A stretch of DNA of 64,000 nt from a virus: the IMG/VR virus record IMGVR_UViG_3300030090_005798, positions 1 through 64,000 of that record. One strand, given 5' to 3'. The translations under genes and the position numbers were made by a program. Shown one piece after another: positions 40,264-63,645 of this stretch. Each line of letters opens with the position of its first letter. Within the stretch, counting starts at the first letter, position 1. The notes beneath the pieces are model-generated. The model was given only the letters and a program-made list of their open reading frames with translations, was not told the origin of the DNA and did not search any database.

Positions 40264-41148
40264 TTATATAGTTACTGTCCCTATTCCAACCTGACCCCAA
40301 AGGTTGTATCCAGTTTGTATCAAAAGAGTTGCCCCAGATATTGCCATTGCTCCAGTAGCATAGTTGGCTGGCACTCCAACAGCAGAAGTATTCCCTCCCC
40401 ATTCTGGAAGTCGAAATCCTGTCTCAAAATGTGTAATACCTCTCATAAAGTTTTCTCCAGAGAATAAAGTATCTGATTCGAAAACCACTGAACTTTGTCC
40501 ACGGAAAGTATTAATTCCTCCAAAGTTATTATTACCAGACAACAAAGTATTTCCTATTACATCCAAATTTCCCGAGACAATACCAGACTGAGCTAAACTT
40601 GTATGATTGCCCATGTATGTTTGGCCCCCTATAAAGAAATGACCACTATTAAATTGCACTGCCAGACTATGATTTCTTGCAACAGTTAAAGATGTAGCAG
40701 ATAGCGAATCTTTCATTATAACGGAACCAGTTGATTCAGTTGCAATAGTAACACCGCGACCCGCTAAGACTACATTATCTTGACTTCCAGTATTAAATGT
40801 AGTGCTAGAACCATGAACCAAAAAATTTCTACTTCCGCTAATGTCTCCATTTACAGAGTATAATGCAATATTGTCTCCATTATTTGAATCTGCGCCAATT
40901 TCTGTATTAGTCCCAGCTATCAGCAGATTTCCGTCATCGATAGAAAAACTATTATCACCAGTGTTCGGCAAACCAAATATTTGTTTTCCGTTTGTCGTAA
41001 ACTGTCCAGTAAAAGCAAAATTTCCTGTTAAATTTTTAGATACATTGATCTGAACCCCAGTATCAGTCTGAGTGATATTTAAATCTCCAGAATCACTAAA
41101 AAAAGTGGGCATCTGGATTTGTTCAGGTTGAATTTTGTTAAAAGCCAT
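40264..41148 (-). CDS. Probable virion structural/fibre protein, S/T-G rich
   Basis: Beta-rich G/S/T/N composition; 17 SG/TG in 294 aa; GTGTAA upstream; inverted relative to neighbours. Confidence 0.6.
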   Translation of the reverse strand: MAFNKIQPEQIQMPTFFSDSGDLNITQTDTGVQINVSKNLTGNFAFTGQFTTNGKQIFGLPNTGDNSFSIDDGNLLIAGTNTEIGADSNNGDNIALYSVNGDISGSRNFLVHGSSTTFNTGSQDNVVLAGRGVTIATESTGSVIMKDSLSATSLTVARNHSLAVQFNSGHFFIGGQTYMGNHTSLAQSGIVSGNLDVIGNTLLSGNNNFGGINTFRGQSSVVFESDTLFSGENFMRGITHFETGFRLPEWGGNTSAVGVPANYATGAMAISGATLLIQTGYNLWGQVGIGTVTI

Positions 41149-41186
41149 GCTACAATAGATTATCTTTTATAAATTACACGAATTCA

Positions 41187-41747
41187 ATGAAATTTACTCT
41201 TTATAAGCCAAACTCAAAAAATACAGGCGCTGCATTCAGCTTTGACCTAGCGAAAGACAAAAAAGGAAACGCTGTTATGTATGTATCTATGATACAGCAA
41301 CATAGCTGGAATGATAAGACTAAAAGCGGCTCTTTTAAGGAAAATGCAAAAAATCCTGAAAAATCTGGCACAATTAAGTTATCTGCCAACGAAGCTGGTG
41401 AAATTCTCTCATCATTTAAAACCAGAATCCCTTTTTTGGCTTTCCATAGGAGAAACGATGACACAACAATTATCAAATTTACACCTTGGGATAAAAAAAG
41501 AAAAATTATAGGAAAGGATGGCGATGAATGGCACGAAACCCCAGCCTTTGGAGTTAGCGTTACCAGAAATTCCGCTATGACATTCAAACTGCCTTTAGAG
41601 GCTGGAGAAACAGAAGTTTTGTCTGAACTTCTCAAAAAATATATTTTAGAATCTTTTATTGTAGCTGACGCATATAAGACTCAACCTCAAAAAGAAACCT
41701 CCCAAGAAAGCTCTTCAGATATAGAAGATTCAGATGTCCCATTCTAA
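41187..41747 (+). CDS. Probable ssDNA-binding protein (PC4/Whirly-like)
   Basis: Beta-rich core and acidic C-terminal DIEDSDVPF tail. Confidence 0.55.
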   Translation: MKFTLYKPNSKNTGAAFSFDLAKDKKGNAVMYVSMIQQHSWNDKTKSGSFKENAKNPEKSGTIKLSANEAGEILSSFKTRIPFLAFHRRNDDTTIIKFTPWDKKRKIIGKDGDEWHETPAFGVSVTRNSAMTFKLPLEAGETEVLSELLKKYILESFIVADAYKTQPQKETSQESSSDIEDSDVPF

Positions 41748-43443
41748 AAAACTAAAAGTATTAGTTCACTCTAATCACAGTAGGCTTGTTACTGGTTTTG
41801 GTAAAAATACCAAAAACATAATGATGGGTTTACACAATGATCCAGATATAGAATTAATTGAAGTTGCGAATGGAAGTAAGTATGGAGCAGATGCACTAAC
41901 CCCTTGGGAGTCCTGTGGATCTTATCCTACTAATCCTAGCGTTTTGCAACAAATTCAAGGAGATGGAGCAAAAGAAAGAATGGCTCAATATGGATTTTAT
42001 TGTATTGATGATATCGTAGAAAAATATAAACCCGATGTTTATTTAGGTGTTGAAGATATTTGGGCATTTACACAATATGAGCAAAAGCCTTGGTGGAATA
42101 AAATTAACAAAGTATTATGGACCACTTTAGATAGTCTTCCGATTTTAGATCAAGCCTTACACATGGAACCTCTTTGTGACAAGATGCTCGTTTGGGCTTC
42201 TTTCGCTGAAAAAGAAATGAAAAGACTTGGCTACAAAAATGTAGAGACTCTACACGGAGCAGTAGATTATACTAGTTTTTATCCATTAAAAAATAGAAAT
42301 GAAATAAGAAAAAAATTTGGTATAGATGACTGCTTTGTAATTGGGTTCGTATTTAAGAATCAATTAAGAAAATCCGTGCCTAACCTTTTACAAGGATTTA
42401 AAACTTTTAAAGAAGAAAACCCAAACGTAAAAGCAAAACTTTTACTACACACAGATTGGGGAGAAGTGGGATCAGGATGGGATATACCTAGATATATAAA
42501 AGAAATGGGTATTGATCCTGAAGATATCCTATCAACATACGTTTGTCATGCTTGTGATTTCTATTATGTAGCTCCATATCAAGGAGAAGATAAGAATTGT
42601 CCAAGCTGCAATAAAGAAAAAACATTTAAAACAAAAAGCAGTATCAAAGGAATTGGAGAGAAGGAACTTAATGAACTTTATAATTGTATGGATGTTTATT
42701 GTCATCCATTCACTAGCGGAGGACAAGAGTTGCCAATCCAAGAGGCTAAAGCTGCTGGCTTAATCACATTGGTAACAGAATATTCTTGTGGGACAGATTC
42801 TTGCTACGAAGATCAAGGAGGTATACCTCTCAAATGGAACGAATACAGAGAACCTCAAACTCAATTTATAAAAGCATCTACTTGTCCAAAAGACATAGCC
42901 AATAAACTTTCATATGTTTACAAAATGGATGATGTTGATAAATGGCAATTATCCGTAAAAGCAATGAAATATGTAAGGGAAACCTTTTCCACAGAAAGAA
43001 TATGTAAAAAACTAAAAGAGATTCTTTTGAATCTTAAGAAGCCCGAAATAAAAAAGGAGGAAGAAAAACAAAATCAAAAAGCTCTTGATTTACAAGATGT
43101 TTTAGATGACGAGGGAGTGGAAAACAGAATTGCAGTTATATTGCCTGAGTCTGCTGGAGATGTATTAATATTAAATTCTTTAATGGAAAATTTAAAAAGC
43201 TTATATCCAGAGAAGAATATTTATGTATTTACAAAACCTCAATTTTATCAAATGATAGAGGACAACCCAAGCATACATAAAATGTTACCGTATTCTCCTC
43301 AATTAGAAAATTTGCTATTTCTTGAGGGTAGAGGAAATCACCAAGGATATTTTGATATGGCCTTTCTGCCAAACATTGGAACACAGAGACACTTAAACTA
43401 TCTCCACAATGGTAAAGATAAAACCCAATTTGAATTAAGATGA
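41734..43443 (+). CDS. GT4 glycosyltransferase with CxxC-CxxC insert and C-terminal GT9 N-lobe
   Basis: TGFG, KNQLRK, CHAC..CPSC, GGQELPIQEAKAAG; C-terminal SAGDVL..LKSLYP..NPSIHK. Confidence 0.8.
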   Translation: MSHSKKLKVLVHSNHSRLVTGFGKNTKNIMMGLHNDPDIELIEVANGSKYGADALTPWESCGSYPTNPSVLQQIQGDGAKERMAQYGFYCIDDIVEKYKPDVYLGVEDIWAFTQYEQKPWWNKINKVLWTTLDSLPILDQALHMEPLCDKMLVWASFAEKEMKRLGYKNVETLHGAVDYTSFYPLKNRNEIRKKFGIDDCFVIGFVFKNQLRKSVPNLLQGFKTFKEENPNVKAKLLLHTDWGEVGSGWDIPRYIKEMGIDPEDILSTYVCHACDFYYVAPYQGEDKNCPSCNKEKTFKTKSSIKGIGEKELNELYNCMDVYCHPFTSGGQELPIQEAKAAGLITLVTEYSCGTDSCYEDQGGIPLKWNEYREPQTQFIKASTCPKDIANKLSYVYKMDDVDKWQLSVKAMKYVRETFSTERICKKLKEILLNLKKPEIKKEEEKQNQKALDLQDVLDDEGVENRIAVILPESAGDVLILNSLMENLKSLYPEKNIYVFTKPQFYQMIEDNPSIHKMLPYSPQLENLLFLEGRGNHQGYFDMAFLPNIGTQRHLNYLHNGKDKTQFELR

Positions 43444-44564
43444 GTCACTTAGCAGAAGAATATGCAAAATCTTGTGGTGTTAAAATAGGCAAACCTGTTT
43501 TAAAACCTCACTATTTTCCAATACTGCATGATAAATATATTACAATTCATAATGATAAAAAAGTTCAATCTAAAGAATATGATATGTGGATTGATGTTAT
43601 ATCTTTGTTAAGACCACATCTAACAGATACAAAAATAATTCAAGTTGGAGCAATTGGAGAACAAACTATTGAAGGAGTAGACCAGCATATCCCAACAGGA
43701 ACACTTAAACAATCTGCTTATATTATTAAAAATGCATTAGCTCATGTAGGAATTGATAGCGTCCCCGTTCATATAGCTTCTGCCCTAGATAGACCTGTAG
43801 TTGGTATTTATTCTCATACTTATGCATCCACATGCGAACCTCTTTGGAACGAAAAAAGTAAAGTTGTAACAATTGAATCAGATAGAGGGGGCAATAAACC
43901 CTCTTTCTCTTTAGAAGAAATCCCAAAAACAATAAATTTAATTAAGCCAGAAGAAATAGCTCAAGCTGTGCTTGATGTAATGGGTATTAATAAAACAATA
44001 AAACATAAAACTCTTTTTATTGGCAATCAATATACTTCAAACTTTGTAGAAATAATTCCAACCGTCCCAACATCAGTTCAAGCAAACCACATAGACGTAA
44101 GAATGGATTATGCTCATAACGAGCAGATATTATCTGAGATTATAAGCAGAAACGAAGTTGAGGTCACTTTATCCAAACCCATTGACTTAAGATTTTTAAA
44201 ATCTGGAAAGATTAAAAAAATTGTATATAAAGCAAATAGCTTTGAAAAAGATTTTTTAACTGAAATTAAAAAATCAAGCATCCCTCACATAATAATATGC
44301 ACATCTGGAAAGAACCTAGCTCAAGAAAGATTAAAAAATTTCGACTTTTTAATAAATTATTTAGACCTACAAGGCTTAATAAAAAATAATAAAAAAAGAA
44401 TAAAAAACACAGATTTTAATAAAGTTAAAATCAAAAGTAACAAAAAGGTTGTATGTGGGAATAAGGTTTATGATAGTTTTTTTGATTTGAATGGAAGAAA
44501 AAATTTAGATCATTTTTATATTGACTTAGAATTCTTTAGAGTTTATACTGAAGAAGATGAGTGA
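43440..44564 (+). CDS. GT9 C-lobe fused to an unknown C-terminal domain
   Basis: YITIH..KEY..W, IIQVG, HVGIDSVPVHIASALDRPVVGIY. Confidence 0.7.
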   Translation: MSHLAEEYAKSCGVKIGKPVLKPHYFPILHDKYITIHNDKKVQSKEYDMWIDVISLLRPHLTDTKIIQVGAIGEQTIEGVDQHIPTGTLKQSAYIIKNALAHVGIDSVPVHIASALDRPVVGIYSHTYASTCEPLWNEKSKVVTIESDRGGNKPSFSLEEIPKTINLIKPEEIAQAVLDVMGINKTIKHKTLFIGNQYTSNFVEIIPTVPTSVQANHIDVRMDYAHNEQILSEIISRNEVEVTLSKPIDLRFLKSGKIKKIVYKANSFEKDFLTEIKKSSIPHIIICTSGKNLAQERLKNFDFLINYLDLQGLIKNNKKRIKNTDFNKVKIKSNKKVVCGNKVYDSFFDLNGRKNLDHFYIDLEFFRVYTEEDE

Positions 44565-45336
44565 GAAAAAGATCTACGGACCAGATATCTACAAGCGTAA
44601 CGAGCATGGGTTGCTTGAAAATGTAGACTACGAATTTAACGAGGATGGCTCTGTCAACTGGAGAGCTATGATCAAGGAAGAATTCCTCTATCCTAACAAG
44701 GATTGGTTTGCTTCTAGGAAGAAAGATGTCCCTACTTCTGTTGAGGGTCTCTCCGATAAACAGCTTCTCATTATGCTTGGAGGCATCAAAGAGCTAGCTA
44801 AAATGAGAGGCTATCACACCATTGATTTCAAAGTAGATAATATCTCAGATGGTTACGTTACTGCAAAATGCCAGATAGACTGGATAGAAAATTATGAGTG
44901 TTCATTTGGAGGTATTAACTCCCGCTACACAGATGTAGCTAATGCCACTCTTGCAAATACAGACAATTTCTGCGCTAAATTCCTAGAAACAATAGCCTGT
45001 AACCGCGCTTTTGTCCGTTGTGTGCGTAATTATCTCAATATCCACATTGTAGGGGCAGACGAGATAGATAAGTCAAAAGGAGCTAATAATTCCAATACCG
45101 TGGAGTATGATGCCTCTAGCGACTCCGCTATGCTCCCATTAACGCCAGCAGGAACGCTCCAGAAGGCTTTGGACGAAGATAATGGGGTAAAGTCCTTCGA
45201 TGACTTTAAATCGCTTCTGAGGACGTTCTGGAAGGAAGAAATATACAAAAATGAGGAAGCGGCAAATTGGAAGTCTTATGACGATATCCCAGCCAAAGAG
45301 TGCAGAAAGCTTATTGCAATCTGCAAAAAATCATAA
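44557..45336 (+). CDS. Hypothetical protein, possible single-strand annealing protein
   Basis: LGGIKELA..ETIACNRAFVRCVRNYLNI..GADEI weakly resembles Rad52/RecT-type cores. Confidence 0.4.
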   Translation: MSEKKIYGPDIYKRNEHGLLENVDYEFNEDGSVNWRAMIKEEFLYPNKDWFASRKKDVPTSVEGLSDKQLLIMLGGIKELAKMRGYHTIDFKVDNISDGYVTAKCQIDWIENYECSFGGINSRYTDVANATLANTDNFCAKFLETIACNRAFVRCVRNYLNIHIVGADEIDKSKGANNSNTVEYDASSDSAMLPLTPAGTLQKALDEDNGVKSFDDFKSLLRTFWKEEIYKNEEAANWKSYDDIPAKECRKLIAICKKS

Positions 45337-47838
45337 GTCAAAGAAATTTCTTTGAGTAGCACTAAACGTAGACGGAATCATTCCTTTTCTGCTATTAGTA
45401 TTGCCAAAATTATCCATAGAAAATTGCTGATCTGGTGGAATCAGTCGCAGTGTAGATTCATTGATTGTTGTTTTTATACCAGCAGAATCTACAGATATAT
45501 TTAACGAACTTATAATTGGAGTAAAATCAGGTATGTGCAATCCATAAAGAGTTCTGCTTGAAGATTCTGGCTTTGGATTACCTCTATTAAAACCATCTTT
45601 TATTGATTTTAATTTTTCCATTTCTAAAGTGCTCCCAGACACAGATGACAAAGTTAATTTATTTGTATTTTTATAAACAGGACCATCAACCTTGTAGGAC
45701 TTGAGTTCTACTTTATCAAAAAGGTCTGCGAGCTTTTGCTGATCATCATTGCTTGTTGAAATAGCATTATCTTCTTCCTCTTCACCATCCTCAGATTTTT
45801 TATTTACTCTAGTTTTACTTCGTAAATATTTAAGTTTGATTATTTTTTTACCATTAATAGATGTAAAATATCTGTTATAAGATTTTTTTGCCAAATCATA
45901 TACATGTTCGACAATAGCCTTACCAGCAAACTGTGGTCCCCCTATAAAAAACTGTCTTCTAGAATTTTGTGGTTCAAAAAACTCTAAGAAGCTTTGTATG
46001 GGATCGTAGTCAATAGCCTCGTCATCTCCACCTTCTTCACCTTCATTCTTTTTTTCTAAAGCAGGTATATTTCTTATACCAATAAAGAATCTAGCATTTT
46101 CAGGCTCTCTTGTAATTTTTGCTTCTCCATTTGTAGCTTCAGCTAATTGCTGGATGGTAACATTTGTTTCAGCATTATCTTTCCCAGCAAAATGTTGAGT
46201 CAGTAATTGTAACCAATCATTTAAACTAGATAAATCATCTATATCTTTTACTTTATCACTTCCTTTAAATGGACCTAAAACAGTCATATTACCAGTATTT
46301 TGGAAAGTCATTCTATCTGTTTTATATTCACTATATGAATTTGTAATATATACTCCCCCAGCTACCTGAAAATATGCATTTAAATATTCATACAAAGGAC
46401 TACCAGAAGGTCTGGGCATAATTTTAGCTGTGCCAGTTTGTTTCCCTTGGTCATCGATAGGTTTATATTTCAAAAGTTTGTATCTAAATCTATCAACCTC
46501 TCTGTCTAAATTTTTAAGTTCAGTTGGGTTATCTTCATTTATCTTAGCAGATAGAGCTTTGCTGTATATTGCTGGTTTTCCATGACGCAAAGACCAGAAC
46601 CAATAATCAGCACAAAATGGAGTATATTCATAAAGTTTTCCAAAATCTAAAACTTTACCTAATCTTTGTTTATTTGGAATTCGCCCACCCCCTTTCATTG
46701 GGATATTTCCATGCATTAATATATATGTAAATTTATCAAAAACATCAGTGCTTTCATTTTGATTAAAAATACCAAAAAACACACCCATCTCTTTATAATC
46801 TAATAAATTTTTAAATACTTTATTTTTGTGGAATGGTATTCTCTTGAAAAATATTGGTCTTGGTCTATCATCATTCTCATTTGATCTATCTGAATTGTCT
46901 TGAGGTTTTTCTGTAGTTCCCACATAAGTATTTACAATCAGATTAGCTCTATTGCTTTTTGTAAAACTAGCAGAGGTTATTACCTTGCTTGAACTGTTAG
47001 TATAATCCTTAACCTTGTAAGTTGCAGCTTGTTCTGAATTTATAAATCTAATAGAGTAAGATTTTGGATCTATATACCAATAATAACCCAAGTAAGATGC
47101 CACAGAGCTAATAACACTGCTTAGTGTGCCGCTATTTTCAAATAAAATTCCATCAAAATCCTTTCCTGATGGTAGCCCAGTAATTTGAACCCCTGCTAAA
47201 TTTACAATTTGTTTAAACTCATTTAAGGTGTAACCTCCTCTAAAATTGTATTGGGCTAAGTCAGGATTATTTCTATAAAACGGACTAACAAAATCCAAGT
47301 TTAAGCTTAAATCTTCTTTAAGTTCTCTATTATTATAATATAAAGATAGTTTTGTCCCATCGAACTTTGCCGCTGTTTCAAAATTATATATTCTACCAGC
47401 CTTTATAATAGAGCCTTCTTTTTGGGGAGGCACAGAAGGGAATGGTTCCAACCCAATATTTCTAGGAGAATTTATAACCTCCGCAAAAGGTCCAAATGGA
47501 CCTTCATAATCTAAAGAGTTATCTGGGGGGCAATTTATTCCTCTTACCAATACAATAAAAGAATCTAAAATTAAACTTGTCCTATCAATATATCTTCTAC
47601 TTATTGTTTTTTTTGTGGGATCTGCCGTAGTGGTAAGTTCTGTGCATACAAAATTGTCCATTAAATTTTGTAATTTTTCATTAGAAAAAGAATTAACCTG
47701 TCCTAGCTCTCCAATGACAATCCCCAAGCCTTCAGAAGAATCTATATTCTTAGCGTCTACAATAGAACTAACTGACGCAGAGTGTCCTCCACCTGCGTTG
47801 GTAAAATTCATATCTAACTTGGTTATTGATTCCCTCAT
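45331..47838 (-). CDS. Probable tail tip / baseplate hub protein
   Basis: 835 aa at the end of the tail operon; ISSVASYLGYYWYIDP hub-like segment. Confidence 0.55.
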   Translation of the reverse strand: MRESITKLDMNFTNAGGGHSASVSSIVDAKNIDSSEGLGIVIGELGQVNSFSNEKLQNLMDNFVCTELTTTADPTKKTISRRYIDRTSLILDSFIVLVRGINCPPDNSLDYEGPFGPFAEVINSPRNIGLEPFPSVPPQKEGSIIKAGRIYNFETAAKFDGTKLSLYYNNRELKEDLSLNLDFVSPFYRNNPDLAQYNFRGGYTLNEFKQIVNLAGVQITGLPSGKDFDGILFENSGTLSSVISSVASYLGYYWYIDPKSYSIRFINSEQAATYKVKDYTNSSSKVITSASFTKSNRANLIVNTYVGTTEKPQDNSDRSNENDDRPRPIFFKRIPFHKNKVFKNLLDYKEMGVFFGIFNQNESTDVFDKFTYILMHGNIPMKGGGRIPNKQRLGKVLDFGKLYEYTPFCADYWFWSLRHGKPAIYSKALSAKINEDNPTELKNLDREVDRFRYKLLKYKPIDDQGKQTGTAKIMPRPSGSPLYEYLNAYFQVAGGVYITNSYSEYKTDRMTFQNTGNMTVLGPFKGSDKVKDIDDLSSLNDWLQLLTQHFAGKDNAETNVTIQQLAEATNGEAKITREPENARFFIGIRNIPALEKKNEGEEGGDDEAIDYDPIQSFLEFFEPQNSRRQFFIGGPQFAGKAIVEHVYDLAKKSYNRYFTSINGKKIIKLKYLRSKTRVNKKSEDGEEEEDNAISTSNDDQQKLADLFDKVELKSYKVDGPVYKNTNKLTLSSVSGSTLEMEKLKSIKDGFNRGNPKPESSSRTLYGLHIPDFTPIISSLNISVDSAGIKTTINESTLRLIPPDQQFSMDNFGNTNSRKGMIPSTFSATQRNFFDL

Positions 47839-48665
47839 AAATTAAATTCTTCTTTTGAAGTTGCTCCTCCAAAACCAGATTCAGGTAATACAGCGGAAAA
47901 CCCTGATTTAATAATACTTACACCTGTATAAAGCTCTAGAAAGTTTGATTGCAACTCTTCGACTCCATTTATGTAATAATTTGTTCTTTTCTCTACGAAT
48001 TTTGGACCTTTTATATCCGCGTGTTGGCTAATTAAAGAATCAGTGTTGGGACTCTTTTTAAATGCTAAATATTTAAATTTGTTTTCACTTGCTGTTGTAA
48101 CGATACCCCCTACACTACTAGCAGTCCCAAAATTTGGTTCTAAGTTTTCTCCCGCTAATAAGCCTACACCCGAACCTGAATAAACTTTTATACCATTTAA
48201 AAAATAATGGAAATCATCAAAACCTTTTGCTGAAGAATATCTACCATTAATGCCTGTTCTCAAAGACGGACCTAAATCTCCCGTCCCTGCAAATATGCCC
48301 CCAGTTATAATATTATAAACAATATTTGATGTAGCTTTTGCTGGAGTGCTGCCATCAAAGTTTAAAACAGATGTTTCTTGAAGTGGTGCTGTTTCAGATT
48401 TTGTAAAAAAATCACCCGTAAATATTTGGAATATTTTTTCATTTATTGCTTGTGACTCTACGGGAATTTCTTGTTGTAGGGTTTGTCCATTTAAAGATAA
48501 TCTTATAGTATCTTGTCCTGTTGTTAAATCTGTATCAAAATAAAAATTTTCTATTGTATTAACAGCAAAAACATTTCTTTTTGAAGAGAGATCACCACCC
48601 ATATCAGAGGACATACATCCTGATACAGTTACATTTCCTGTTGTTACCACGCTTTCGTAAATCAT
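47835..48665 (-). CDS. Tail/baseplate structural protein
   Basis: Repeated (Y/L)(L/I)NG motifs; 12 SG/TG; operon context. Confidence 0.55.
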   Translation of the reverse strand: MIYESVVTTGNVTVSGCMSSDMGGDLSSKRNVFAVNTIENFYFDTDLTTGQDTIRLSLNGQTLQQEIPVESQAINEKIFQIFTGDFFTKSETAPLQETSVLNFDGSTPAKATSNIVYNIITGGIFAGTGDLGPSLRTGINGRYSSAKGFDDFHYFLNGIKVYSGSGVGLLAGENLEPNFGTASSVGGIVTTASENKFKYLAFKKSPNTDSLISQHADIKGPKFVEKRTNYYINGVEELQSNFLELYTGVSIIKSGFSAVLPESGFGGATSKEEFNL

Positions 48666-53186: not shown

Positions 53187-56100
53187 TTATTTTCCTTTCG
53201 CTCTATCTAATTCTGCCTGTGCATCTCTTATTAGACCTTGCGCTGTTTTTATAGCCTCTTCTGCGTCTAAAATTGTTTGATTGTTTGTGCTGATCAGACC
53301 CGCTATAGTCTCTGTTTTCTGAACATCCATTCTAATTGGCTTAATAGACTCCTCTGCGTTTGTGGCCAATTGTTGCATTGCATTTTTCGCATCAATAACA
53401 GATTGAGCGAATTCGCCAGCCTCTTCATCGTTAAGAAGATTTTCAATATTCTTTTTCGTAGTTGCTAATTTTTGTTCAATTGCTTTAGCTTCTTCTCTTA
53501 GTTTTGTGTCCAGATCAGTAGTGTCTATTCCTTTATCTCTCAAATAGTCAGGCATCATAGCTCCAGTAAGCTTCTTACCTGCTGCTGTTTCTGCTCCTCC
53601 AAGACCAACTTTCACCACATCGGTTAACACTCCCCTTAGTTCTTTCGCGGTGATACTAGGATCAAATTGTCGTATTAAATCCTCAACCTTAACGCCAAGC
53701 CCCTGATCATCAAACTCAGAAATCATTTGACCTAAAGCCTCTTTATCCATCTTTTCTCCTTTATTTATTTCACTTACAATGTCTCCAACTTGTTGTCCCA
53801 TAAAGTCCATGTCTAAAGCTTCTCCTCCAAATATATTTTTAATTGTATCTGCTGCTGATGAAATAGACTTGGCTAAAGTTTCTTCAATCTTTTTGGCATT
53901 TTCTGCCTTCATCTCCTCAATCTCAGTCATCTTAACTTGGAAGCCAGCCATCGCTGTTTTAACGGCTGTTTCAAAAGCTATTCCAGAGGACTTCACTTTG
54001 GCTCTCTCCTCTCCCACGGCAGCTAAGTAAGCATCTCCCTGCGCCCTAGCCTCATCCGTAAGCTCACCAGCCTGTCCACCCTCAATCATACCCGCAATCT
54101 CTCTTACAACATCAGGGATTAAATTTTTATTGTCTACACTACCAAAAAAGTTGCCTTCCTTTGTTGCTAAATTACTTTGAGCAAGACCAAATTTAGCCCT
54201 TGTAGAATCTACTCCTGCTATAGTTAAGTCTTGTTGAGCAGAAAGCTTCGACGCTCCTTTCATTGGCCCTGTAATAGCATCTGCTAATATGTTTCTTATT
54301 GAAGCCTCTCTTAAATTTTCTTCAGCTACCTCTACGGCTTTTTGGCTTATAGCAGCCAGTTCTCTTTGTGCAGCAACAATTTGTTTTTGTGCCTCAAGAC
54401 TAGCCCTTGCAAACTCTAACTCTGCTTTTTCAATACCTTCTTTGTCTTTAAGTAATTGACCTTCAGAAAGCTGCGCTCCTTTAAGAAGGATATTCTTAAC
54501 TTTTCGTTGAGCCATCGACAAATCCCTTTGTGCTTGGTTGAGTTCAATGGTTGATTCTCCATCTTCCAACTTACTTTCTTCTAAAGCTACAGCACTTGCA
54601 AATCTTGCCATCTCTTGCCTTGCGTTTGTGAGTTCTGTCACAAACTCTGGTGTCGCATTGCCAGTTTTTACTAATCTCTCATTAAACTTGTTGGTTGCTT
54701 TTTTAAAGTCTTCTCCAAAACCCATTTCTGCAAGCTCGCTTGGTAGAAAACTATCTATTCTCTGATTGAGTAGGTCTATTGGATTTGATCCATCTCCTGC
54801 CCCTCCTGCCGCAGCACCGCCTATCGCTTGACCAGCTTTCCCTACCCCAAAAGCTCCTAATATACCCGCTCCAAGTCCTATCGCACCGCCAGCAAGATTT
54901 CCAATTCCTGGAGCGAAACTTCCCAACGCCATTCCAGTAAGCGCGCTTGCACCTATACCTCCCAAGGTTGCTCCTATACCACCTCCCAATGCTCTTCCTT
55001 TTTGATATCTTTTATCTTGCCTACTTATATCTTGTCTTTTTTCTATATTAGATATCTCGCTTGCTGTAAGGGCTATCCCTGCTACTGTTCCAGCAATACC
55101 AAATTTTGTCCCCGTTCCCATGCCTCCTTTGTTTTGGTTTAACATAGCTGCCTTAAGCTTTGGATCTTTAGAAGCGGCAGCAAATGATCCACCTACTGTC
55201 CTAACACCTCCTATCTTACTCGGAGCGATAGAGGGTGTCCTTCTACCAAAAAATCCTCCACCAGAGCCTCTTCCAGAAACATCTCCTGCCCCTTGTCCTC
55301 TGAATGCTAGAAGCATAGCTACAGTAGAACCAACACCAGCTAAACGCATAAGCATTTCTGAAGAGCTTTGTAGGACAGTCCTTTGCTCTTTTAAGCTTTG
55401 TGTTAACTCATCTCTTGCCATCAACTCGTCTGAAACAGCTAAGACTCCTTTCTCAGCAATAGCCTCTTGAGTATTCATTAATTCTTTAGAACTTTCGTTC
55501 ATAGAATCAAGTAGAGCATGTTGTTGCTCCATCTTTGCTGTAACTGTTCCAGCAGCCGAAGTTAAACCCATGAACGCTATGCCAAGAGTCGTCATTCTAT
55601 TTTCAGCCTTAAATAATCCTTTAGTAAATCTAAGGAGCGCTGGACCCGCTTTGGCCACATTATAATTCGGAACAAATCCACCAGCAAACATTCCAACGCC
55701 ATTCCGCTCTCGCTTTATAGCATCTTGTAAACCATTTGGTTCATCTCTTAAGTTTGTTACTGCAACAGGTTCACCTTGATCGTCTTTGTGAACTCTCATC
55801 AAAGACATAGGAACTCCACCTCTTCTAGTGAAGTTTGGTATAAATCCTCTAGCTCTTCTTTTCTCGTTTTTAACCTTTGTCTTCCCTTTACCTATTTCTA
55901 TTCGACCAGCTACGTTATCAATAATTTGTTTAACATATTTAGTCTTGTTTCCAATACTGTCTGAAGATTTAAAATCTCCAAACTCAAAATTCATGTCTTG
56001 TAGACCAAAGATTAATTCTAGATCTTTTCTAGCTTTATCAAATTGAATATCTAGCTGTCCTTTATCTTGAGCAACTCCTCCTGTAATAGCTTGAATAACA

Positions 56101-58406
56101 CCCTCAAAAATCGCTCCTTTAATAGCTCCAAAAGCCCCAGCGCCACCTTTCTCTAATATTTTTGTTACTTCTCCACCTTTGTAACTTTTTGGTTTTGTTT
56201 TTACCCCAGTTTTAGAAACCAAAAGATTTAAGCTCTCATTTACTGCGGCAGCTAGATTATCCTCAATGGTTTCTTTTATATCTAGCAAGTGACCAAATTT
56301 TTTATTCCCCTTTAAGTTGGGGCTAATTCCAGCCATACCTCCTTCGAAGAAATCGATTTGCTTTCTTCCATACGGCGTTGCAAATTTATGATCTGCCTTA
56401 TTAGATGCAAATCCCATCTCTTCTGGGATAATCATAACAGCCTTGTTAGGCTTATTATTAGCATAATATGTTTTCTTACCTGCCGCCGAGTCTCTTTTTG
56501 CAATCAGTGCTGCTCCTAATCTGCTGTTAGGATTAGCAATTGCATTTCTAACTTTATCTGTTTTTGGATTACCATCTGCATCAAAAAACTGAGACCGAGG
56601 TCTATTATTAACAGTATCGATATCTAAATAATTAGGAACAAACCCTCTAGGATATCTTGGTATTACAGCAGAATCTCTTCCTCCTGCAAAATTTCTTATC
56701 TCATCCTCTTGATTATTCATGATGAACCTTTGTCCACCAATTGTTCCTTTACCCATATGAGCCTTAACACTTTGGCTAGCCCCAAGCATCATTGCCTCTG
56801 CTTCTTCTGCCCTAAAACCAGCATTAAATCTTCTCCCCCCTCTGCCGCCAAAACCTCCAGTATCGCTAAACCCTCTAACCCCTCTTGCGGCAGCAGCATT
56901 AGCTAAAGACCTCATTAATTGAGCCTGTTGCGATAGCAAAGCATTTTCTCTTTTGATAGCTTGTATAACAGCCTGTTCTCTTTGAGCTTGCGTTAGCGTA
57001 GTATTTGCCATTTGCTTTCTCAGCATGTCATCTTTCTGAAGAAGCTGAACTATACCACCCTCAATTTGTTTTACTCTTTCTGTTTGAGTCCCCATTTGGA
57101 AAAGAGTTTTTAAACCCTCTCCAGCAAATCTAGCAACAAGTTTAGTAATCTTTACAAAAGCCGTTGTAAATATAACAATAGCAGGACCACTTAAAAATGT
57201 TCCAATAGCCTTAAAAAATCCTTTTATAAAAGTGTTTCCTTTTTCTGGGTCTAATGCATTGTCTAAAAATTCTGTAAATTTGGTAGCTATACCAACTAAA
57301 CTTTCAAGAACAGGACCAAAAGTCAAACTACCAACTTTCTCTGCCAAACTTGTCAAGCCAACAACTAATGCATTTATATTAGAAGCAAGACTTTCTCCTA
57401 ACGCTTTATTTTTTTCAAAAGCCTCATTAGTGGCTGTCGCTGCGGTTGTAGCAGCATCTCTAAATATCCCAGTTTCACTACTCAAATCTTTAAGAGCAGC
57501 ACTAACCACGTTAATCTGGAAGACACCACCTGCGAGTTCTTTTATTTTAGAAACGACAGTGGGATCGGATATGCCTTCTATAGCATTTGATAAAGCATTT
57601 AGTTTTTGAACCCCTGTTTGAGTTGCATCAATTTGAACTCCTAATTCTTTTAATTCTTCTATAGTTGTTCCCCTAGCTAATCTAGTAAAAATAGATTTAA
57701 ATGCGTTACCAATAACCGCTCCACCCCTAGCTGTCTTTTGCTCAACAGCAGTGACTAAAGCCAAAAGTTCATCAAAACTAACTCCAGCATCCTCTGCTGT
57801 GGAACCAGCACGGCTAAATGCTTCTGCTAAGTCTTGAGCAGACACAGCGAAAGCCGTATCAACAGCAACCATTTTATTTACAATTTCTGTATGCTTTAAA
57901 CCAGCAGACTCAAAACCATTAATAGCGGCGGTTAATGCCTTAACTGACTTTTCTGCATCTAAACCAGATATCCTAGTTAACACCAACGCAGATTTCAATC
58001 TTGAGGCAGTTTCTTCAGCATTCAAACCTTGACGAGCTAACTCTGCTGCTCCATCTGCAACAGTCGCAAATGATTGTCCCGTTTCTTTAGCAACTTGAAA
58101 TATAGAATTTCTAAACCTGTTAAAGCTTGTTTCTGTGGCTTGAAATATAGAATTAACTTCAATAAGTCTTTTTTCAACTTCAATAGTCGTAGAAATTAAT
58201 TTTTTAAAGGATTGAGTAACTCCATTTAAAACAGCAGTTGTCGCTCCGAACGCAAAAACACGCGCAGTTGAGGCATCCAGAGATTTTTGGAATTCTGAAG
58301 CCTGTCCTGTAATTCTACCTAAAGCTTGCTTAACCTGCTTTGTAGAAGCATTTAAGCTAGCAGTATTTAGCGAAACATTTAGTGAAGCATTAAAACTTTG
58401 TGCCAT
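53187..58406 (-). CDS. Tail tape measure protein with internal cargo region
   Basis: 1739 aa; TP901-type core (A.ELARQG, TARGGAVIGNAFKSIFTR), Gly/Ala TM-like region, coiled-coil C-terminus. Confidence 0.9.
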   Translation of the reverse strand: MAQSFNASLNVSLNTASLNASTKQVKQALGRITGQASEFQKSLDASTARVFAFGATTAVLNGVTQSFKKLISTTIEVEKRLIEVNSIFQATETSFNRFRNSIFQVAKETGQSFATVADGAAELARQGLNAEETASRLKSALVLTRISGLDAEKSVKALTAAINGFESAGLKHTEIVNKMVAVDTAFAVSAQDLAEAFSRAGSTAEDAGVSFDELLALVTAVEQKTARGGAVIGNAFKSIFTRLARGTTIEELKELGVQIDATQTGVQKLNALSNAIEGISDPTVVSKIKELAGGVFQINVVSAALKDLSSETGIFRDAATTAATATNEAFEKNKALGESLASNINALVVGLTSLAEKVGSLTFGPVLESLVGIATKFTEFLDNALDPEKGNTFIKGFFKAIGTFLSGPAIVIFTTAFVKITKLVARFAGEGLKTLFQMGTQTERVKQIEGGIVQLLQKDDMLRKQMANTTLTQAQREQAVIQAIKRENALLSQQAQLMRSLANAAAARGVRGFSDTGGFGGRGGRRFNAGFRAEEAEAMMLGASQSVKAHMGKGTIGGQRFIMNNQEDEIRNFAGGRDSAVIPRYPRGFVPNYLDIDTVNNRPRSQFFDADGNPKTDKVRNAIANPNSRLGAALIAKRDSAAGKKTYYANNKPNKAVMIIPEEMGFASNKADHKFATPYGRKQIDFFEGGMAGISPNLKGNKKFGHLLDIKETIEDNLAAAVNESLNLLVSKTGVKTKPKSYKGGEVTKILEKGGAGAFGAIKGAIFEGVIQAITGGVAQDKGQLDIQFDKARKDLELIFGLQDMNFEFGDFKSSDSIGNKTKYVKQIIDNVAGRIEIGKGKTKVKNEKRRARGFIPNFTRRGGVPMSLMRVHKDDQGEPVAVTNLRDEPNGLQDAIKRERNGVGMFAGGFVPNYNVAKAGPALLRFTKGLFKAENRMTTLGIAFMGLTSAAGTVTAKMEQQHALLDSMNESSKELMNTQEAIAEKGVLAVSDELMARDELTQSLKEQRTVLQSSSEMLMRLAGVGSTVAMLLAFRGQGAGDVSGRGSGGGFFGRRTPSIAPSKIGGVRTVGGSFAAASKDPKLKAAMLNQNKGGMGTGTKFGIAGTVAGIALTASEISNIEKRQDISRQDKRYQKGRALGGGIGATLGGIGASALTGMALGSFAPGIGNLAGGAIGLGAGILGAFGVGKAGQAIGGAAAGGAGDGSNPIDLLNQRIDSFLPSELAEMGFGEDFKKATNKFNERLVKTGNATPEFVTELTNARQEMARFASAVALEESKLEDGESTIELNQAQRDLSMAQRKVKNILLKGAQLSEGQLLKDKEGIEKAELEFARASLEAQKQIVAAQRELAAISQKAVEVAEENLREASIRNILADAITGPMKGASKLSAQQDLTIAGVDSTRAKFGLAQSNLATKEGNFFGSVDNKNLIPDVVREIAGMIEGGQAGELTDEARAQGDAYLAAVGEERAKVKSSGIAFETAVKTAMAGFQVKMTEIEEMKAENAKKIEETLAKSISSAADTIKNIFGGEALDMDFMGQQVGDIVSEINKGEKMDKEALGQMISEFDDQGLGVKVEDLIRQFDPSITAKELRGVLTDVVKVGLGGAETAAGKKLTGAMMPDYLRDKGIDTTDLDTKLREEAKAIEQKLATTKKNIENLLNDEEAGEFAQSVIDAKNAMQQLATNAEESIKPIRMDVQKTETIAGLISTNNQTILDAEEAIKTAQGLIRDAQAELDRAKGK

Positions 58407-58409: not shown

Positions 58410-58422
58410 GTGTAAATTACAC
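58410..58422 (-). promoter_or_regulatory. GTGTAA late-promoter-like motif, here palindromic (GTGTAAATTACAC); representative of 12 copies
   Basis: Plus-strand (t/c)tacac at 3602, 6185, 10277, 13109, 15801, 34973, 37626, 41174, 58417, 61361, 62741 and 62751, each 8-33 nt upstream of a minus-strand start codon. Confidence 0.7.
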
Positions 58423-58425
58423 CTA

Positions 58426-60073: not shown

Positions 60074-60104
60074 CTCTATTATTATAGAGAATAAAATGAT
60101 ATTA

Positions 60105-60500
60105 TCAACTTTTTACGCCGCTGATAGAAATAGATGCTGTAGAGTCCCCATGCTTTTCAAATGTTATGAGACCAACTTTCCCATCATCGACTACTTCTGT
60201 GCCAGTCACATCCAAACCATTAGCAATCAGAACATCTTCACTATAGTAGCTAAATGTATTATCGTGATAATTGTAATGGATATCAAAATCAATAGGGATG
60301 CCACTTTTATATCCCCCCCAAAAATTACCACTTTGATCAAATAAGTAACCTTCGTGTCCCGAAAATTTAACCAACTCTCCCTGTGAACTAGCTCCAGTCT
60401 CTAATAAACGAAATTCAAAGCCGCTAACTGGTGAGTCAACAACTAAACTAACATTATAAATTGAATTTTTATAAGGGCTAAACTCTCCACTGATGATCAT
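60105..60500 (-). CDS. Small structural protein
   Basis: 131 aa beta-rich, 8 SG/TG. Confidence 0.55.
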   Translation of the reverse strand: MIISGEFSPYKNSIYNVSLVVDSPVSGFEFRLLETGASSQGELVKFSGHEGYLFDQSGNFWGGYKSGIPIDFDIHYNYHDNTFSYYSEDVLIANGLDVTGTEVVDDGKVGLITFEKHGDSTASISISGVKS

Positions 60501-61351: not shown

Positions 61352-61366
61352 ATATGTAGTTTACAC

Positions 61367-61397
61367 AAAAAAGCCCCGCATCTCTGCGAGGCTTTTT
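61367..61397 (-). terminator. Intrinsic terminator after the major tail protein
   Basis: GCCTCGCA-GAGA-TGCGGGGC plus U-tract on the minus strand. Confidence 0.85.
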
Positions 61398-61421
61398 GTA
61401 ATATCTTTAATAACAAGTATA

Positions 61422-62717
61422 TTATAGACCTATATTGTAAGGTTTCTTATCATTACCCTTTAAGTAATAATAACCTCTATCAAATCCACCTGCTCCATAA
61501 GTATCTGGCAATGCTCCAGCAGCACCAGAGTAGAACAAGCCTTGATCTGTTTGATTAGAACCTCCAATTTGAGTAGAGAAAACAAGATCAATTGTCTCGT
61601 TATCATCAAGACCTTGAGAGAACCCTTGAGAGTCCAATACAGCCTTTTGCATAACAAAGTTGTGCTTTGTAGTGCCGTCTTCTCCCTTAACGTCCAATGT
61701 GATATTTGTTGTTTCTTCTCCAGCAGAGCCTGTCAAAATCTTGTCAATTTGACCAGCACTGAAGTTTTTAAGCAATGCACTAACAGACATTGTTACGTTA
61801 ATTGGGAAGTCCAAAGGCTTGGCTACTGCTTTAGCAGAACCAAGAGCCTCAATAGGAGTCCTTGAAAGAGGAACCTCAATAGAAGCACTCTGAACATGCA
61901 TATCCCCAAGATCTGTCCCTCCAAATGTAAACGATTCATTTGAGAAACTAAGAGTAACATCTTCTGGCCTAAGAACAAGAACGTCCATGTTTCCAGTGCT
62001 AGGCACACCAAGCATAAGTTGGCCAGTGTCTGCTCTCATTCCATTTCTTGCCAAGGCTGGATTATAAAGACCAGAGTTTGCGGTATCAAATGAAATGTTT
62101 TCGGCTGTTCCATCAATATCAACTCTTGGAATTTCTCCCACAGCGAAGTTAACAGTATAGCTTTCAAAGTTACAGTTTCCTAATGAAACCACATCTTGTG
62201 CTGCTAATTCCGAAGTTGTAAAACGTCCAGTTGGATTATCAATAAAAGACCCTTGAGGCGCGGTAGTTCCTGCTGTTGTAAAAGCATCCTCACCTTCTGC
62301 TGTAGTTAAAACATAAAGGTTTTTCTCTCTTTTAGCAGGGTCTTCGGAAAGAATGCCTTTAATAAATTGATCCTGTAAATCGCCAGCATCATCTTTTCCT
62401 GCTGGGTTAAATCCTAAATTACTCTCATTTTCCCCATTTCCAAGAAAGTATCCAACTGAAAATGATGGGTTTAAATCTCCGAGATTAATAGTTCCGATAC
62501 GCGCTAATTGTCCAAACTCTCTAACGTCCTGTCTTCCTCCTGCGAGGTCAACATCAAAAGAAAATGTGTCAATGCGGTGAAGCTGCGGAGGCAAAATGCC
62601 TGACAGCGCTGAAATTTTGCGAGAAGCTGAATCAGCAGCCCCAAATGTAGGCAAAATACCTGTTGGAGACACATAAACAGCCTTACTCTGCGAGATTACT
62701 CTAGTTCTAGAAGCCAT
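61422..62717 (-). CDS. Major tail tube protein
   Basis: RQDVREFGQLARI, YTVNFAVG, VQSASIEVPLSRTPIEALG, GLDDNETIDL; two GTGTAA upstream and its own terminator. Confidence 0.7.
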   Translation of the reverse strand: MASRTRVISQSKAVYVSPTGILPTFGAADSASRKISALSGILPPQLHRIDTFSFDVDLAGGRQDVREFGQLARIGTINLGDLNPSFSVGYFLGNGENESNLGFNPAGKDDAGDLQDQFIKGILSEDPAKREKNLYVLTTAEGEDAFTTAGTTAPQGSFIDNPTGRFTTSELAAQDVVSLGNCNFESYTVNFAVGEIPRVDIDGTAENISFDTANSGLYNPALARNGMRADTGQLMLGVPSTGNMDVLVLRPEDVTLSFSNESFTFGGTDLGDMHVQSASIEVPLSRTPIEALGSAKAVAKPLDFPINVTMSVSALLKNFSAGQIDKILTGSAGEETTNITLDVKGEDGTTKHNFVMQKAVLDSQGFSQGLDDNETIDLVFSTQIGGSNQTDQGLFYSGAAGALPDTYGAGGFDRGYYYLKGNDKKPYNIGL

Positions 62718-62760
62718 ATTAATATATTAAAGTGAAATGTTTACACTTTCTTACACGGAT

Positions 62761-63645
62761 TTACAATCTAGGGAAACGATAAGTGCATAATTCAAAGTCT
62801 ATATAGCCAATTGAGATGTTTTTATTTAAATTTTCTCTAATTCTCTCTGAGACTATTTTTGAGACTGAAACTTCCTGAATATGAGATTTTGTAGGGCTAG
62901 ACTGAGCGTCAACCAAACTGTCGTAACTATATGGAAAATCTTTTAATGAAAAGGAAAACCCATAAGGAAAATCTTCATATGGGATATGAGTGATATCTTT
63001 TCTTACGGTGTCTCTAAACAAAGAAAGAACAGAATCTAATGTGTAGTTATCAAACGATAAAACCATGACCCTCATTCTTGTTCTTGTATCTTCCTCTCCT
63101 CCAAAAGAAAACTCTGTATTATCTGAGGAGGCTACAGAAATAAAACAAGCAGGTAGGAAATAAGTTGTTTCATCAAATTCCCCCGTTTTACTGTATTGAT
63201 AAGGTAACTCAGTAGCACTATCTTTAAAATCAGAGTGTATTATTATTTGGGCATCTGTGTCATTTGTGATGTAAGTATTTACTTCTTTTACAGTAGAATT
63301 GGCTGTTAATGCAGTAGAGCCTATTTCAGCGCCAGATGCTTGTGGAAATATCAATCTTCCATTTTCGTAATCTGTGAAAACTCCCCCATTTTCATCATAA
63401 TTTCCTGTGATAAAACTACTACCCAAAAAGAAGCCAGAGTTAGGATTGTCTACATTATGCTCACCAACTAGAGATCTATATTTTCCTTGAAAGGCTACAT
63501 GACTTGGAGGCACATCTGGAAAAGAGCCAGAAGTAAAAGCATTATCTAAATTAATCTTATATGCTTTTGCAGAACTACCAAGCAGTTGGTTTTCAAACCA
63601 TAGGTAGAAACTGGATAAAATATTCTGATCAAACTGCGCCTTCAT
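62761..63645 (-). CDS. Tail terminator / neck protein
   Basis: LPACFI..FSFGGE..RVMVL..LDSVLS pattern; directly upstream of the tube gene. Confidence 0.55.
   Translation of the reverse strand: MKAQFDQNILSSFYLWFENQLLGSSAKAYKINLDNAFTSGSFPDVPPSHVAFQGKYRSLVGEHNVDNPNSGFFLGSSFITGNYDENGGVFTDYENGRLIFPQASGAEIGSTALTANSTVKEVNTYITNDTDAQIIIHSDFKDSATELPYQYSKTGEFDETTYFLPACFISVASSDNTEFSFGGEEDTRTRMRVMVLSFDNYTLDSVLSLFRDTVRKDITHIPYEDFPYGFSFSLKDFPYSYDSLVDAQSSPTKSHIQEVSVSKIVSERIRENLNKNISIGYIDFELCTYRFPRL

What the first reader, a model, noticed from the sequence alone, without database searches (positions are those of the whole stretch)
40264..63645. Candidate virion O-glycosylation system: [S/T]-G dipeptides enriched in selected structural proteins, paired with about 10 phage glycosyltransferases
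Seen (hand counts of SG+TG): 24 in 50043..51644 (24 of 46 Gly), about 23 in 48662..50041, 17 in 40264..41148 (17 of 41 Gly, versus 6 GS/GT), 12 in 47835..48665, 8 in the 131-aa 60105..60500 and 7-8 in each tube protein. TGWSG also recurs in the tail fibre. The adjacent, similarly S/T-rich 51637..53184 has only 1, so composition alone does not explain it. The window also encodes GT9-like, GT4 and GT-A enzymes, HldA/HldC/HldD, Gmd, TagD, a methyltransferase and a sulfotransferase-like protein. Established: ADP-heptose is the donor for Ser/Thr protein heptosylation by Aah/TibC, Ser-Gly is a known O-glycosylation sequon in proteoglycans, and some phages glycosylate their virions. Inference: [S/T]-G is an acceptor sequon on exposed virion loops, and the phage builds its own decorated glycan coat.
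Basis: partly seen in the sequence, partly recalled or inferred. Interest (0 to 1): 0.88.

Follow-up and report, generated by a model that had tools for sequence, protein, structure and literature searches.

The report
Ser/Thr-Gly-rich phage tail-tip proteins
Five outer tail proteins of this uncultured marine phage, and their counterparts in over a hundred relatives, carry the ordered pair Ser/Thr-Gly about twice too often at conserved positions. This may mark sugar-attachment sites for the phage's own transferases, but nothing yet shows any modification.

Summary
G-[S/T], N-G and D-G are not enriched. Codons at the sites are diverse, so selection acts on the amino acids.

About 50 distinct homologues per family keep ratios of 2.1-2.5, while neighbouring tail families sit at 0.5-0.9. 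Twenty-five T4 structural proteins give 1.1.

The fold does not require the motif. The 50043-51644 family exists in motif-rich and motif-poor forms. The motif's glycines are an extra population (slope 0.91), while other glycines stay constant.

All relatives keep a soluble transferase set: 38435-39523, 41734-43443 and 43440-44564, a GT9 split over two genes. No transferase-less relative was found, so the co-variation test is uninformative.

The heptose link fails: two complete relatives lack the HldA-like kinase and still show the bias. Capsid and tube proteins are not enriched. About ten of 23 sites in the good model lie inside beta-strands. Only four or five transferases have profile support, not ten.

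Verdict: a conserved motif. It is most likely (about 0.4) an acceptor tag for O-glycosylation. A purely structural cause is nearly as likely (0.35).

This scan has noted similar motifs in other phage genomes.

The parts
50043..51644 (-). 533-aa baseplate/tail-tip protein with a tail-tube-like N-terminal domain; 24 [ST]G
   Evidence: Counts. Residues 4-111 match tube/Dit/hub-type chains of phage baseplates (6v8i_AC Z 9.0, rmsd 2.9, 105 aligned), on a low-confidence model (pLDDT 59). The family has motif-rich and motif-poor forms.
48662..50041 (-). 459-aa probable receptor-binding protein: N-terminal ConA-like lectin/CBM jelly roll plus a C-terminal region of long beta-strands; 23 [ST]G
   Evidence: AF2 pLDDT is 83.6. 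Residues 12-265 match 5hon_B (Z 16.9, rmsd 3.0, 190 aligned) and the cyanopodophage Pan3 tailspike 9vyh_q (Z 15.3). All 51 distinct homologues keep 16-30 sites.
47835..48665 (-). 276-aa tail-tip protein; 12 [ST]G
   Evidence: Family ratio is 2.45 over 50 homologues.
40264..41148 (-). 294-aa [ST]G-rich protein, a lone minus-strand gene next to the transferase block; 17 [ST]G against 6 G[ST]
   Evidence: 13 of 17 sites are kept in every homologue aligned. Family ratio is 2.21 over 57 homologues. No Pfam or PHROG match.
60105..60500 (-). 131-aa protein between the tail-tube candidates and the chaperone-like genes; 8 [ST]G
   Evidence: Family ratio is 1.9-2.2.
51637..53184 (-). 515-aa protein directly after the tape measure; S/T-rich but [ST]G-poor (1 against 5.6). 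Serves as an internal control.
   Evidence: The family has 149 observed against 278 expected over 50 homologues.
53187..58406 (-). Tape measure protein; not enriched (17 against 22.7)
   Evidence: Pfam PhageMin_Tail 1.2e-25; PHROG tape-measure families.
45331..47838 (-). 835-aa distal tail protein; not enriched (7 against 8.8)
   Evidence: family ratio 0.91.
38435..39523 (+). Soluble GT-B glycosyltransferase, conserved in complete relatives
   Evidence: phrog_2170 at 1.1e-17. Each of three relatives has exactly two phrog_2170 genes.
41734..43443 (+). GT4-like transferase with four invariant Cys (CxxC-14-CxxC), fused at its C-terminus to a GT9 N-lobe
   Evidence: phrog_2170 at 3.4e-20 over residues 10-434. 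Weak Pfam GT1-group hits. Profile residues 467-526 match GT9 3tov residues 9-68, E 0.048. Invariant C271, C274, C289 and C292.
43440..44564 (+). GT9 C-lobe protein; the second half of the split GT9
   Evidence: Pfam Glyco_transf_9 at 4.6e-10, profile positions 173-228. WaaF 1psw residues 246-307, E 0.018. Overlaps the upstream gene.
41187..41747 (+). Whirly-like ssDNA-binding protein candidate with an acidic C-terminal tail; first gene of the conserved four-gene block
   Evidence: Atlas nearest named cluster is Whirly (0.92, 212 shared features; a lead only). The acidic tail ending in VPF is read from the sequence.
44557..45336 (+). 259-aa protein, possible single-strand annealing protein; last gene of the block
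   Evidence: Atlas nearest named clusters are Sak and Rad52 at 0.89 (a lead only). No Pfam or PHROG hit.
8409..9658 (-). HldC-like nucleotidyltransferase and HldA-like PfkB kinase; not conserved with the motif
   Evidence: Pfam. The kinase is absent from two complete relatives.
28456..34738 (-). Sugar operon: Gmd, a GT4, a weak GT2, four unassigned ORFs and a TagD-like cytidylyltransferase
   Evidence: Gmd-like genes are present in three relatives at 74, 42 and 34% identity.

Best explanation
[S/T]-G is a functional add-on motif on the outermost tail proteins. These are the baseplate protein 50043-51644, the lectin-like receptor-binding protein 48662-50041, 47835-48665, 40264-41148 and 60105-60500.

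Most likely it is the acceptor tag for a modification of the Ser/Thr hydroxyl made in the cytoplasm before or during tail assembly. The best candidate is O-glycosylation by the clade's conserved soluble GT-B enzymes: 38435-39523 and the GT4/split-GT9 pair 41734-43443 plus 43440-44564.

The sugar is not specifically phage-made heptose.

Shown here: the motif, its conservation, its independence from fold, and the constant presence of the transferases.

Inferred: that the transferases act on these proteins, and that any modification exists at all.
For: 1. The excess is ordered. [ST]G is 84 against 38.8 expected, while G[ST] is 0.3-0.8, NG 0.93 and DG 0.81.
2. Codons at the sites use all Ser/Thr and Gly codon classes, including AGY, so this is not a DNA motif or a by-product of CCNGG avoidance.
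3. Five families with no detectable similarity share the excess, while adjacent tail families of similar composition are at 0.5-0.9. T4 structural proteins are at 1.1.
4. Sites are conserved far above background. Gly in [ST]G is kept at 0.78-0.93 against 0.44-0.67 for other Gly; Ser/Thr at 0.72-0.88 against 0.40-0.63. When Ser/Thr does change, the other hydroxyl residue is favoured (27-40% against 16-27%).
5. The fold does not need the motif. Homologues of 50043-51644 at 32-40% identity have either 14-24 sites or 1-6. Across 104 representatives, total Gly rises with [ST]G at slope 0.91, while other Gly stays at 27.9 +/- 6.2. Motif-poor forms show textbook NG 1.33 and DG 1.46.
6. In a distant subgroup, large proteins beside the transferase block match none of the seven tail-family profiles tested (five motif-rich, two controls), yet are again enriched: 87 against 35.7, 84 against 39.6 and 62 against 32.3, without internal repeats.
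7. All 24 loci retrieved through a structural protein, where the flank reaches, carry the transferase block, as do all 80 retrieved through the transferase.
8. Sites occur in coil, at helix ends and in strands, not in one structural context.
9. Precedent: TibC heptosylates Ser-313 of TibA, which lies in N-S-G-G (PMC4358343).
Against: - No chemistry exists for any of this.
- No transferase-less relative was found, so the association is untested by contrast.
- In several contigs (L024, L060, L070, L073, L079) the 50043-51644 homologue has lost the motif although the transferases are present.
- The enrichment comes from inherited, conserved columns. Outside columns shared by at least 30% of sequences the ratio is 0.97.
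- Flanks are hydrophobic, and about 10 of 23 sites in the confident model are inside strands.
- Asn is the commonest replacement for Ser/Thr at these sites in two of the four families tested (48662-50041 and 50043-51644), and Ala is rare there, as expected for turn positions.
- Capsid and tube proteins, the targets in mycobacteriophages, are not enriched.
- The transferase pair sits between a Whirly-like SSB candidate and an annealing-protein candidate, on the opposite strand to the tail genes. In distant relatives it follows the DnaE genes.
- Profile searches of the transferases did not retrieve TibC.
Confidence: 0.4

Rival explanations
1. Purely structural motif. [ST]G marks tight turns, type I turn plus G1-bulge loops and beta-bulges in very beta-rich tail proteins. 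The Ser/Thr hydroxyl caps the backbone, and the motif is simply inherited in these families. The transferases serve another target, such as host surface glycans or DNA.
For: - Sites are positionally conserved, and there is no excess outside conserved columns (0.97).
- Positions -2, -1, +2 and +3 are enriched in hydrophobic residues.
- 16 of 24 and 11 of 23 sites fall in coil or at strand ends, and the rest lie in strands.
- Replacements are mostly Asn, Gly, Glu, Lys and Asp, rarely Ala.
- Motif-poor homologues often carry NG or DG at the same columns.
- Loss of the motif in one family occurs with the transferases still present.
Against: - The same fold exists with 1-6 sites and about 12 fewer glycines.
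- In the poorest forms even the Gly is gone at almost all columns.
- T4 beta-rich baseplate and fibre proteins show no excess.
- Several sequence-unrelated families share the excess while neighbours do not.
- Site contexts are heterogeneous.
- An AT-rich genome should favour Asn over Ser/Thr.
Confidence: 0.35
2. Chemical-stability adaptation. Long-lived extracellular tail-tip proteins replace deamidation- and isomerisation-prone Asn-Gly and Asp-Gly turns with Ser/Thr-Gly.
For: Motif-poor homologues have NG 1.33 and DG 1.46, whereas motif-rich ones have NG 1.12 and DG 0.78. It is established chemistry that Asn-Gly is the most deamidation-prone dipeptide.
Against: - NG is not depleted in the five window proteins (0.93).
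- Motif-rich forms gain about 12 extra glycines rather than swapping Asn for Ser.
- Equally exposed proteins (capsid, tube, 45331-47838) show no such shift.
Confidence: 0.08
3. A functional motif that is not a modification site, for example a repeated contact motif for host glycans or for a partner tail protein.
For: 48662-50041 has a lectin-like domain. The motif is restricted to the distal tail proteins.
Against: Sites are spread over whole proteins and over unrelated families, rather than clustered in one binding surface. No such binding motif is known.
Confidence: 0.07

Closest known systems
Bacterial autotransporter heptosyltransferases (TibC/Aah) hyperglycosylating TibA/AIDA-I
   Same: Both involve a soluble cytoplasmic GT-B enzyme of GT9 type. 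In both, many Ser acceptor sites lie on a beta-rich surface protein, and one mapped TibA site lies in N-S-G-G (PMC4358343). Both enzymes carry a four-Cys metal-finger-like insertion, and enzyme and substrate genes are adjacent.
   Different: - No sequence or profile match to TibC.
- The four Cys sit in the GT4-like domain, not in the GT9 part.
- The GT9 is split over two ORFs.
- Thr is as frequent as Ser here, whereas TibC modified only Ser.
- The acceptors are phage tail proteins, not autotransporters.
- Phage heptose genes are dispensable in relatives.
Mycobacteriophage virion O-glycosylation (Che8, Corndog, Myrna; Freeman et al. 2023, as cited in PMC12619734)
   Same: Phage-encoded glycosyltransferases modify the phage's own structural proteins.
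   Different: There the glycans are on the C-termini of capsid and tail-tube subunits. Here the candidate sites are internal, dipeptide-defined and confined to tail-tip proteins, while capsid and tube are not enriched. The original paper could not be read.
Type I turn plus G1 beta-bulge hairpin loops with Asp/Asn/Ser/Thr before Gly (structural knowledge, from memory)
   Same: Gly is preceded by a small polar capping residue at strand ends. Asn and Asp appear at the same columns in motif-poor homologues.
   Different: That motif normally favours Asn/Asp and occurs in all beta proteins. Here Ser/Thr is chosen specifically, only in some families and lineages, and many sites lie in helices or inside strands.
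Proteoglycan Ser-Gly xylosylation
   Same: The Ser-Gly dipeptide serves as an O-glycosylation acceptor.
   Different: That system has acidic flanks and an SGxG context, is Ser-only, and uses a Golgi GT14 enzyme. None of these features is seen here.

Membership tests
BAHT (TibC/Aah) protein heptosyltransferase system | Sequence membership: more than 50% homology to TibC/AAH, as stated in PMC4358343 | tested here: not met
   phmmer and profile searches of both transferase proteins against all PDB sequences (TibC is deposited there, per PMC4358343) returned only WaaF 1psw and GT9 3tov at E 0.018-0.43. TibC did not appear.
BAHT (TibC/Aah) protein heptosyltransferase system | GT9-type GT-B catalytic domain | tested here: met
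   Pfam Glyco_transf_9 at 4.6e-10 on 43440-44564 (C-lobe). The N-lobe lies at the C-terminus of 41734-43443 (3tov residues 9-68, E 0.048). The domain is split over two ORFs.
BAHT (TibC/Aah) protein heptosyltransferase system | Iron-finger (four Cys) insertion, beta-hairpin thumb, N-terminal beta-barrel and dodecamer | tested here: inconclusive
   Four invariant Cys (CxxC-14-CxxC) exist, but in the GT4-like domain.
BAHT (TibC/Aah) protein heptosyltransferase system | ADP-heptose as donor | not testable with these tools
   Indirect only. The phage HldA-like kinase is missing in two complete relatives that keep the motif.
BAHT (TibC/Aah) protein heptosyltransferase system | Ser-only acceptors on a beta-helical autotransporter passenger | tested here: not met
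   There are 42 Ser and 42 Thr sites. The acceptor candidates are tail proteins, one of them with a ConA-like jelly roll.
Mycobacteriophage-type virion glycosylation | Phage-encoded glycosyltransferases present | tested here: met
Mycobacteriophage-type virion glycosylation | Glycans on capsid and tail-tube subunit C-termini | not testable with these tools
   Motif statistics only. Head ORFs and the tube candidates are not enriched.
Proteoglycan Ser-Gly sequon | Acidic flanks, Ser only | tested here: not met
   Flanks are enriched in hydrophobic residues, Asp/Glu are not enriched at -1, and Thr equals Ser in frequency.
Turn / G1-bulge structural motif | Sites at hairpin loops or strand ends, replaceable by Asn or Asp | tested here: inconclusive
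   16 of 24 sites (low-confidence model) and 11 of 23 sites (pLDDT 83.6) lie in coil or at boundaries. About 10 of 23 are inside strands and several are at helix ends. Asn is the top replacement in two of four families. The fold also exists without the motif.

The most novel reading that the evidence does not exclude
A large clade of uncultured marine phages O-glycosylates its receptor-binding tail-tip proteins at a minimal Ser/Thr-Gly sequon. The enzymes would be a conserved soluble transferase set that includes a GT9 split over two genes. The same baseplate protein circulates in sequon-rich and sequon-free allelic forms, so the degree of tail glycosylation would be an evolvable trait.
Probability: 0.3. 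Interest if true: 0.85.

Novelty: new variant of a known kind. Interest (0 to 1): 0.62.

Why it matters
Virion glycosylation by phage enzymes is so far documented only for a few mycobacteriophages, and no sequon is known for any phage. A dipeptide-defined acceptor on receptor-binding proteins would have three consequences. Glycosylated phage proteins could be predicted from sequence. It would give a purpose to the many orphan glycosyltransferases in marine phage genomes. It would also add a new layer to host recognition and to the particle's stability or stealth.

If the cause proves structural, the result is still a clean example of lineage-specific dipeptide usage that a fold does not require. 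The claim can be tested directly with a 131-aa or 459-aa substrate and three enzyme genes.

Tried and rejected
**DNA-level explanations: rejected.**
- Site codons are diverse. 19 of 42 Ser sites use AGY codons, which cannot derive from CCN by one step.
- Only about 4.5 Pro-Gly are expected in the five proteins, against an excess of 45.

**Other simple explanations: rejected.**
- Internal repeats. There are none in the large enriched proteins. TGWSG alone is repeat-borne.
- A generic property of beta-rich baseplate or fibre proteins. T4 gives 1.1.
- Ongoing gain of new sites. The ratio is 0.97 outside conserved columns.

**DNA hypermodification as the transferases' target: weakened, not excluded.**
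- No ThyA-family hydroxymethylase is present in the contig or in two complete relatives.
- The Tet/JBP search had no positive control.

**Searches that led nowhere.**
- Cultured phage relatives: megablast and tblastn of two tail proteins found nothing. The transferase hits only cyanophage GTs at 22-24% identity. DnaE gives no close hit.
- PHROGs and Pfam on the tail proteins gave no hits.
- The Freeman 2023 paper is not held.
- The first AF2 model (50043-51644) was poor (pLDDT 59). Models give no coordinates here, so solvent exposure could not be computed.


Full report
**Setting.** The window is the first 64 kb of a 77.8-kb IMG/VR contig that CheckV rates 56% complete. It has no cultured relative. 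On the minus strand, tail genes run from about 63.6 kb down to 45.3 kb. The tape measure is at 53187-58406, and head genes lie beyond the window.

**Observation.**
- The five proteins 50043-51644, 48662-50041, 40264-41148, 47835-48665 and 60105-60500 hold 84 [ST]G against 38.8 expected. Individual P values range from 8.5e-6 to 6.9e-3.
- The reverse pair G[ST] is at 0.3-0.8.
- The classical turn pairs NG (0.93) and DG (0.81) are not enriched.
- The tube candidates, tape measure, 45331-47838 and all head ORFs are not enriched.
- 51637-53184 is depleted.
- TGWSG belongs to three internal domain repeats of ORF 3-3239.

**Not a DNA effect.** Site codons use all classes: ACT, ACA, AGT, TCT and others for Ser/Thr, and all four Gly codons. 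Separately, CCNGG (1 site against about 63 expected) and CCGG (0 against about 45) are almost absent from the contig and from every relative. This abolishes Pro-Gly (0 against 27.8 expected in non-tail ORFs). It cannot explain the excess. Only about 4.5 Pro-Gly would be expected in the five proteins, and 45% of Ser sites use AGY codons.

**Conservation.**
- Twenty-four loci were found through a tail protein and 80 through the transferase. Pooled ratios in these loci are 2.21 (40264-41148 family, n=57), 2.45 (47835-48665, n=50), 2.22 (48662-50041, n=51), 2.08 (50043-51644, n=53) and 1.91 (60105-60500, n=6).
- For comparison, the 51637-53184 family is at 0.54, 45331-47838 at 0.91 and the tape measure at 0.98. 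These sequences are related, so the numbers are not independent.
- Gly and Ser/Thr inside the motif are conserved far more than elsewhere.
- Changes at the Ser/Thr favour the other hydroxyl residue.
- Twenty-five T4 structural proteins give 1.11 overall and none is clearly enriched.

**The fold does not require the motif.**
- A profile search found 476 relatives of 50043-51644. At similar divergence (32-40% identity) they carry either 14-24 sites or 1-6.
- Across 104 full-length representatives, total Gly rises with [ST]G count at slope 0.91. Gly not preceded by Ser/Thr is constant (27.9 +/- 6.2, r = -0.08).
- Motif-poor forms have textbook NG 1.33 and DG 1.46 with SG 0.60. Motif-rich forms have SG 2.02 and TG 2.36.
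- The motif therefore behaves as an added layer.
- In a distant subgroup, large proteins next to the transferase block lack similarity to any of the seven tail-family profiles tested. They are nevertheless enriched (for example 87 against 35.7), without internal repeats. Some equally large neighbours are not enriched.

**Structure.**
- 48662-50041 folds confidently (pLDDT 83.6). Residues 12-265 form a ConA-like lectin/CBM jelly roll (5hon_B Z 16.9; Pan3 tailspike Z 15.3), so it is probably a receptor-binding protein.
- Of its 23 sites, about 11 are in coil or at strand boundaries, 2 are at helix C-termini and about 10 are inside strands. Several of the last group lie in two very long C-terminal strands.
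- 50043-51644 has a tube-like N-terminal domain (Z 9.0), but the model is poor.
- Flanks are enriched in hydrophobic residues.
- Replacements are mostly Asn, Gly, Glu, Lys or Asp, and rarely Ala.
- Outside columns shared by at least 30% of sequences, the ratio falls to 0.97.
- These points keep a structural reading alive.

**Enzymes.**
- 41734-43443 is a GT4-like enzyme with four invariant Cys and a GT9 N-lobe at its C-terminus.
- 43440-44564 begins with the GT9 C-lobe.
- 38435-39523 is a paralogous GT.
- The block 41187/41734/43440/44557 is present in every relative whose flank reaches it.
- Its end genes look like a Whirly-type SSB and an annealing protein (leads only). In distant relatives the block follows the DnaE genes. 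Context therefore does not prove a virion role.
- TibC was not retrieved.
- The HldA-like kinase is absent from two 100%-complete relatives, and the HldD-like epimerase from one. Both relatives keep the bias, so the heptose link is not supported.
- In several contigs, 50043-51644 homologues have lost the motif although the transferases remain.

**Verdict.**
- The motif is real, conserved, selected at the amino-acid level, family-specific and independent of fold.
- I rate a hydroxyl-directed modification at 0.40, most plausibly O-glycosylation by the conserved transferases. A purely structural cause is at 0.35, and other causes make up the rest.
- The key contrast, relatives without the transferases, could not be obtained.
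- Earlier notes of this scan describe similar motifs in other phage genomes. I treat them as leads, not evidence. One of their claims, that the heptose genes are not co-conserved, I tested here and it holds.

Noticed in passing
whole window and all related loci: CCNGG (1 site against about 63 expected) and CCGG (0 against about 45) are almost absent, while GGNCC and GGCC are normal. AACGTT, CCATGG and CAGCTG are also absent. As a result Pro-Gly is missing from the proteome (0 against 27.8 expected in 13,009 aa). This looks like restriction-site avoidance shared by the whole clade.
   Followed up: partly
window 41734-44564 (+): A GT9 heptosyltransferase-like domain is split. Its N-lobe is fused to the C-terminus of a GT4-like enzyme that has four invariant Cys (CxxC-14-CxxC). 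Its C-lobe starts the next, overlapping ORF. The arrangement is conserved in all relatives.
   Followed up: partly
window 41187-41747 (+) and 44557-45336 (+): The genes flanking the transferase pair look like a Whirly-type ssDNA-binding protein with an acidic C-terminal tail and a Sak/Rad52-like annealing protein. These are atlas leads at 0.92 and 0.89 only.
   Followed up: partly
window 3-3239 (-): A fibre-like protein of more than 1079 aa, cut by the contig end. It has three ~110-aa repeats, each holding TGWSG, and C-terminal repeats. It is not [ST]G-enriched overall (23 against 20.4).
   Followed up: partly
window 51637-53184 (-): The protein directly after the tape measure is consistently depleted in [ST]G across 50 homologues (149 against 278 expected), although it is Ser/Thr-rich.
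   Followed up: partly
L107 (CAKZOO010000042.1): A syntenic relative contig is binned in an uncultured Flavobacteriaceae MAG. This is a weak hint to the host, or a binning artefact.
   Followed up: no
L076, L077, L078: Three closely related contigs have near-identical neighbouring genes, but their 50043-51644 homologues carry 6, 10 and 14 [ST]G. This suggests exchange of motif-rich and motif-poor alleles.
   Followed up: no
window 63642-63854: This ORF continues past the window end to 64283 (213 aa) on the full contig. The head module, with candidate capsid, portal and terminase genes, follows at 64.3-73 kb.
   Followed up: partly
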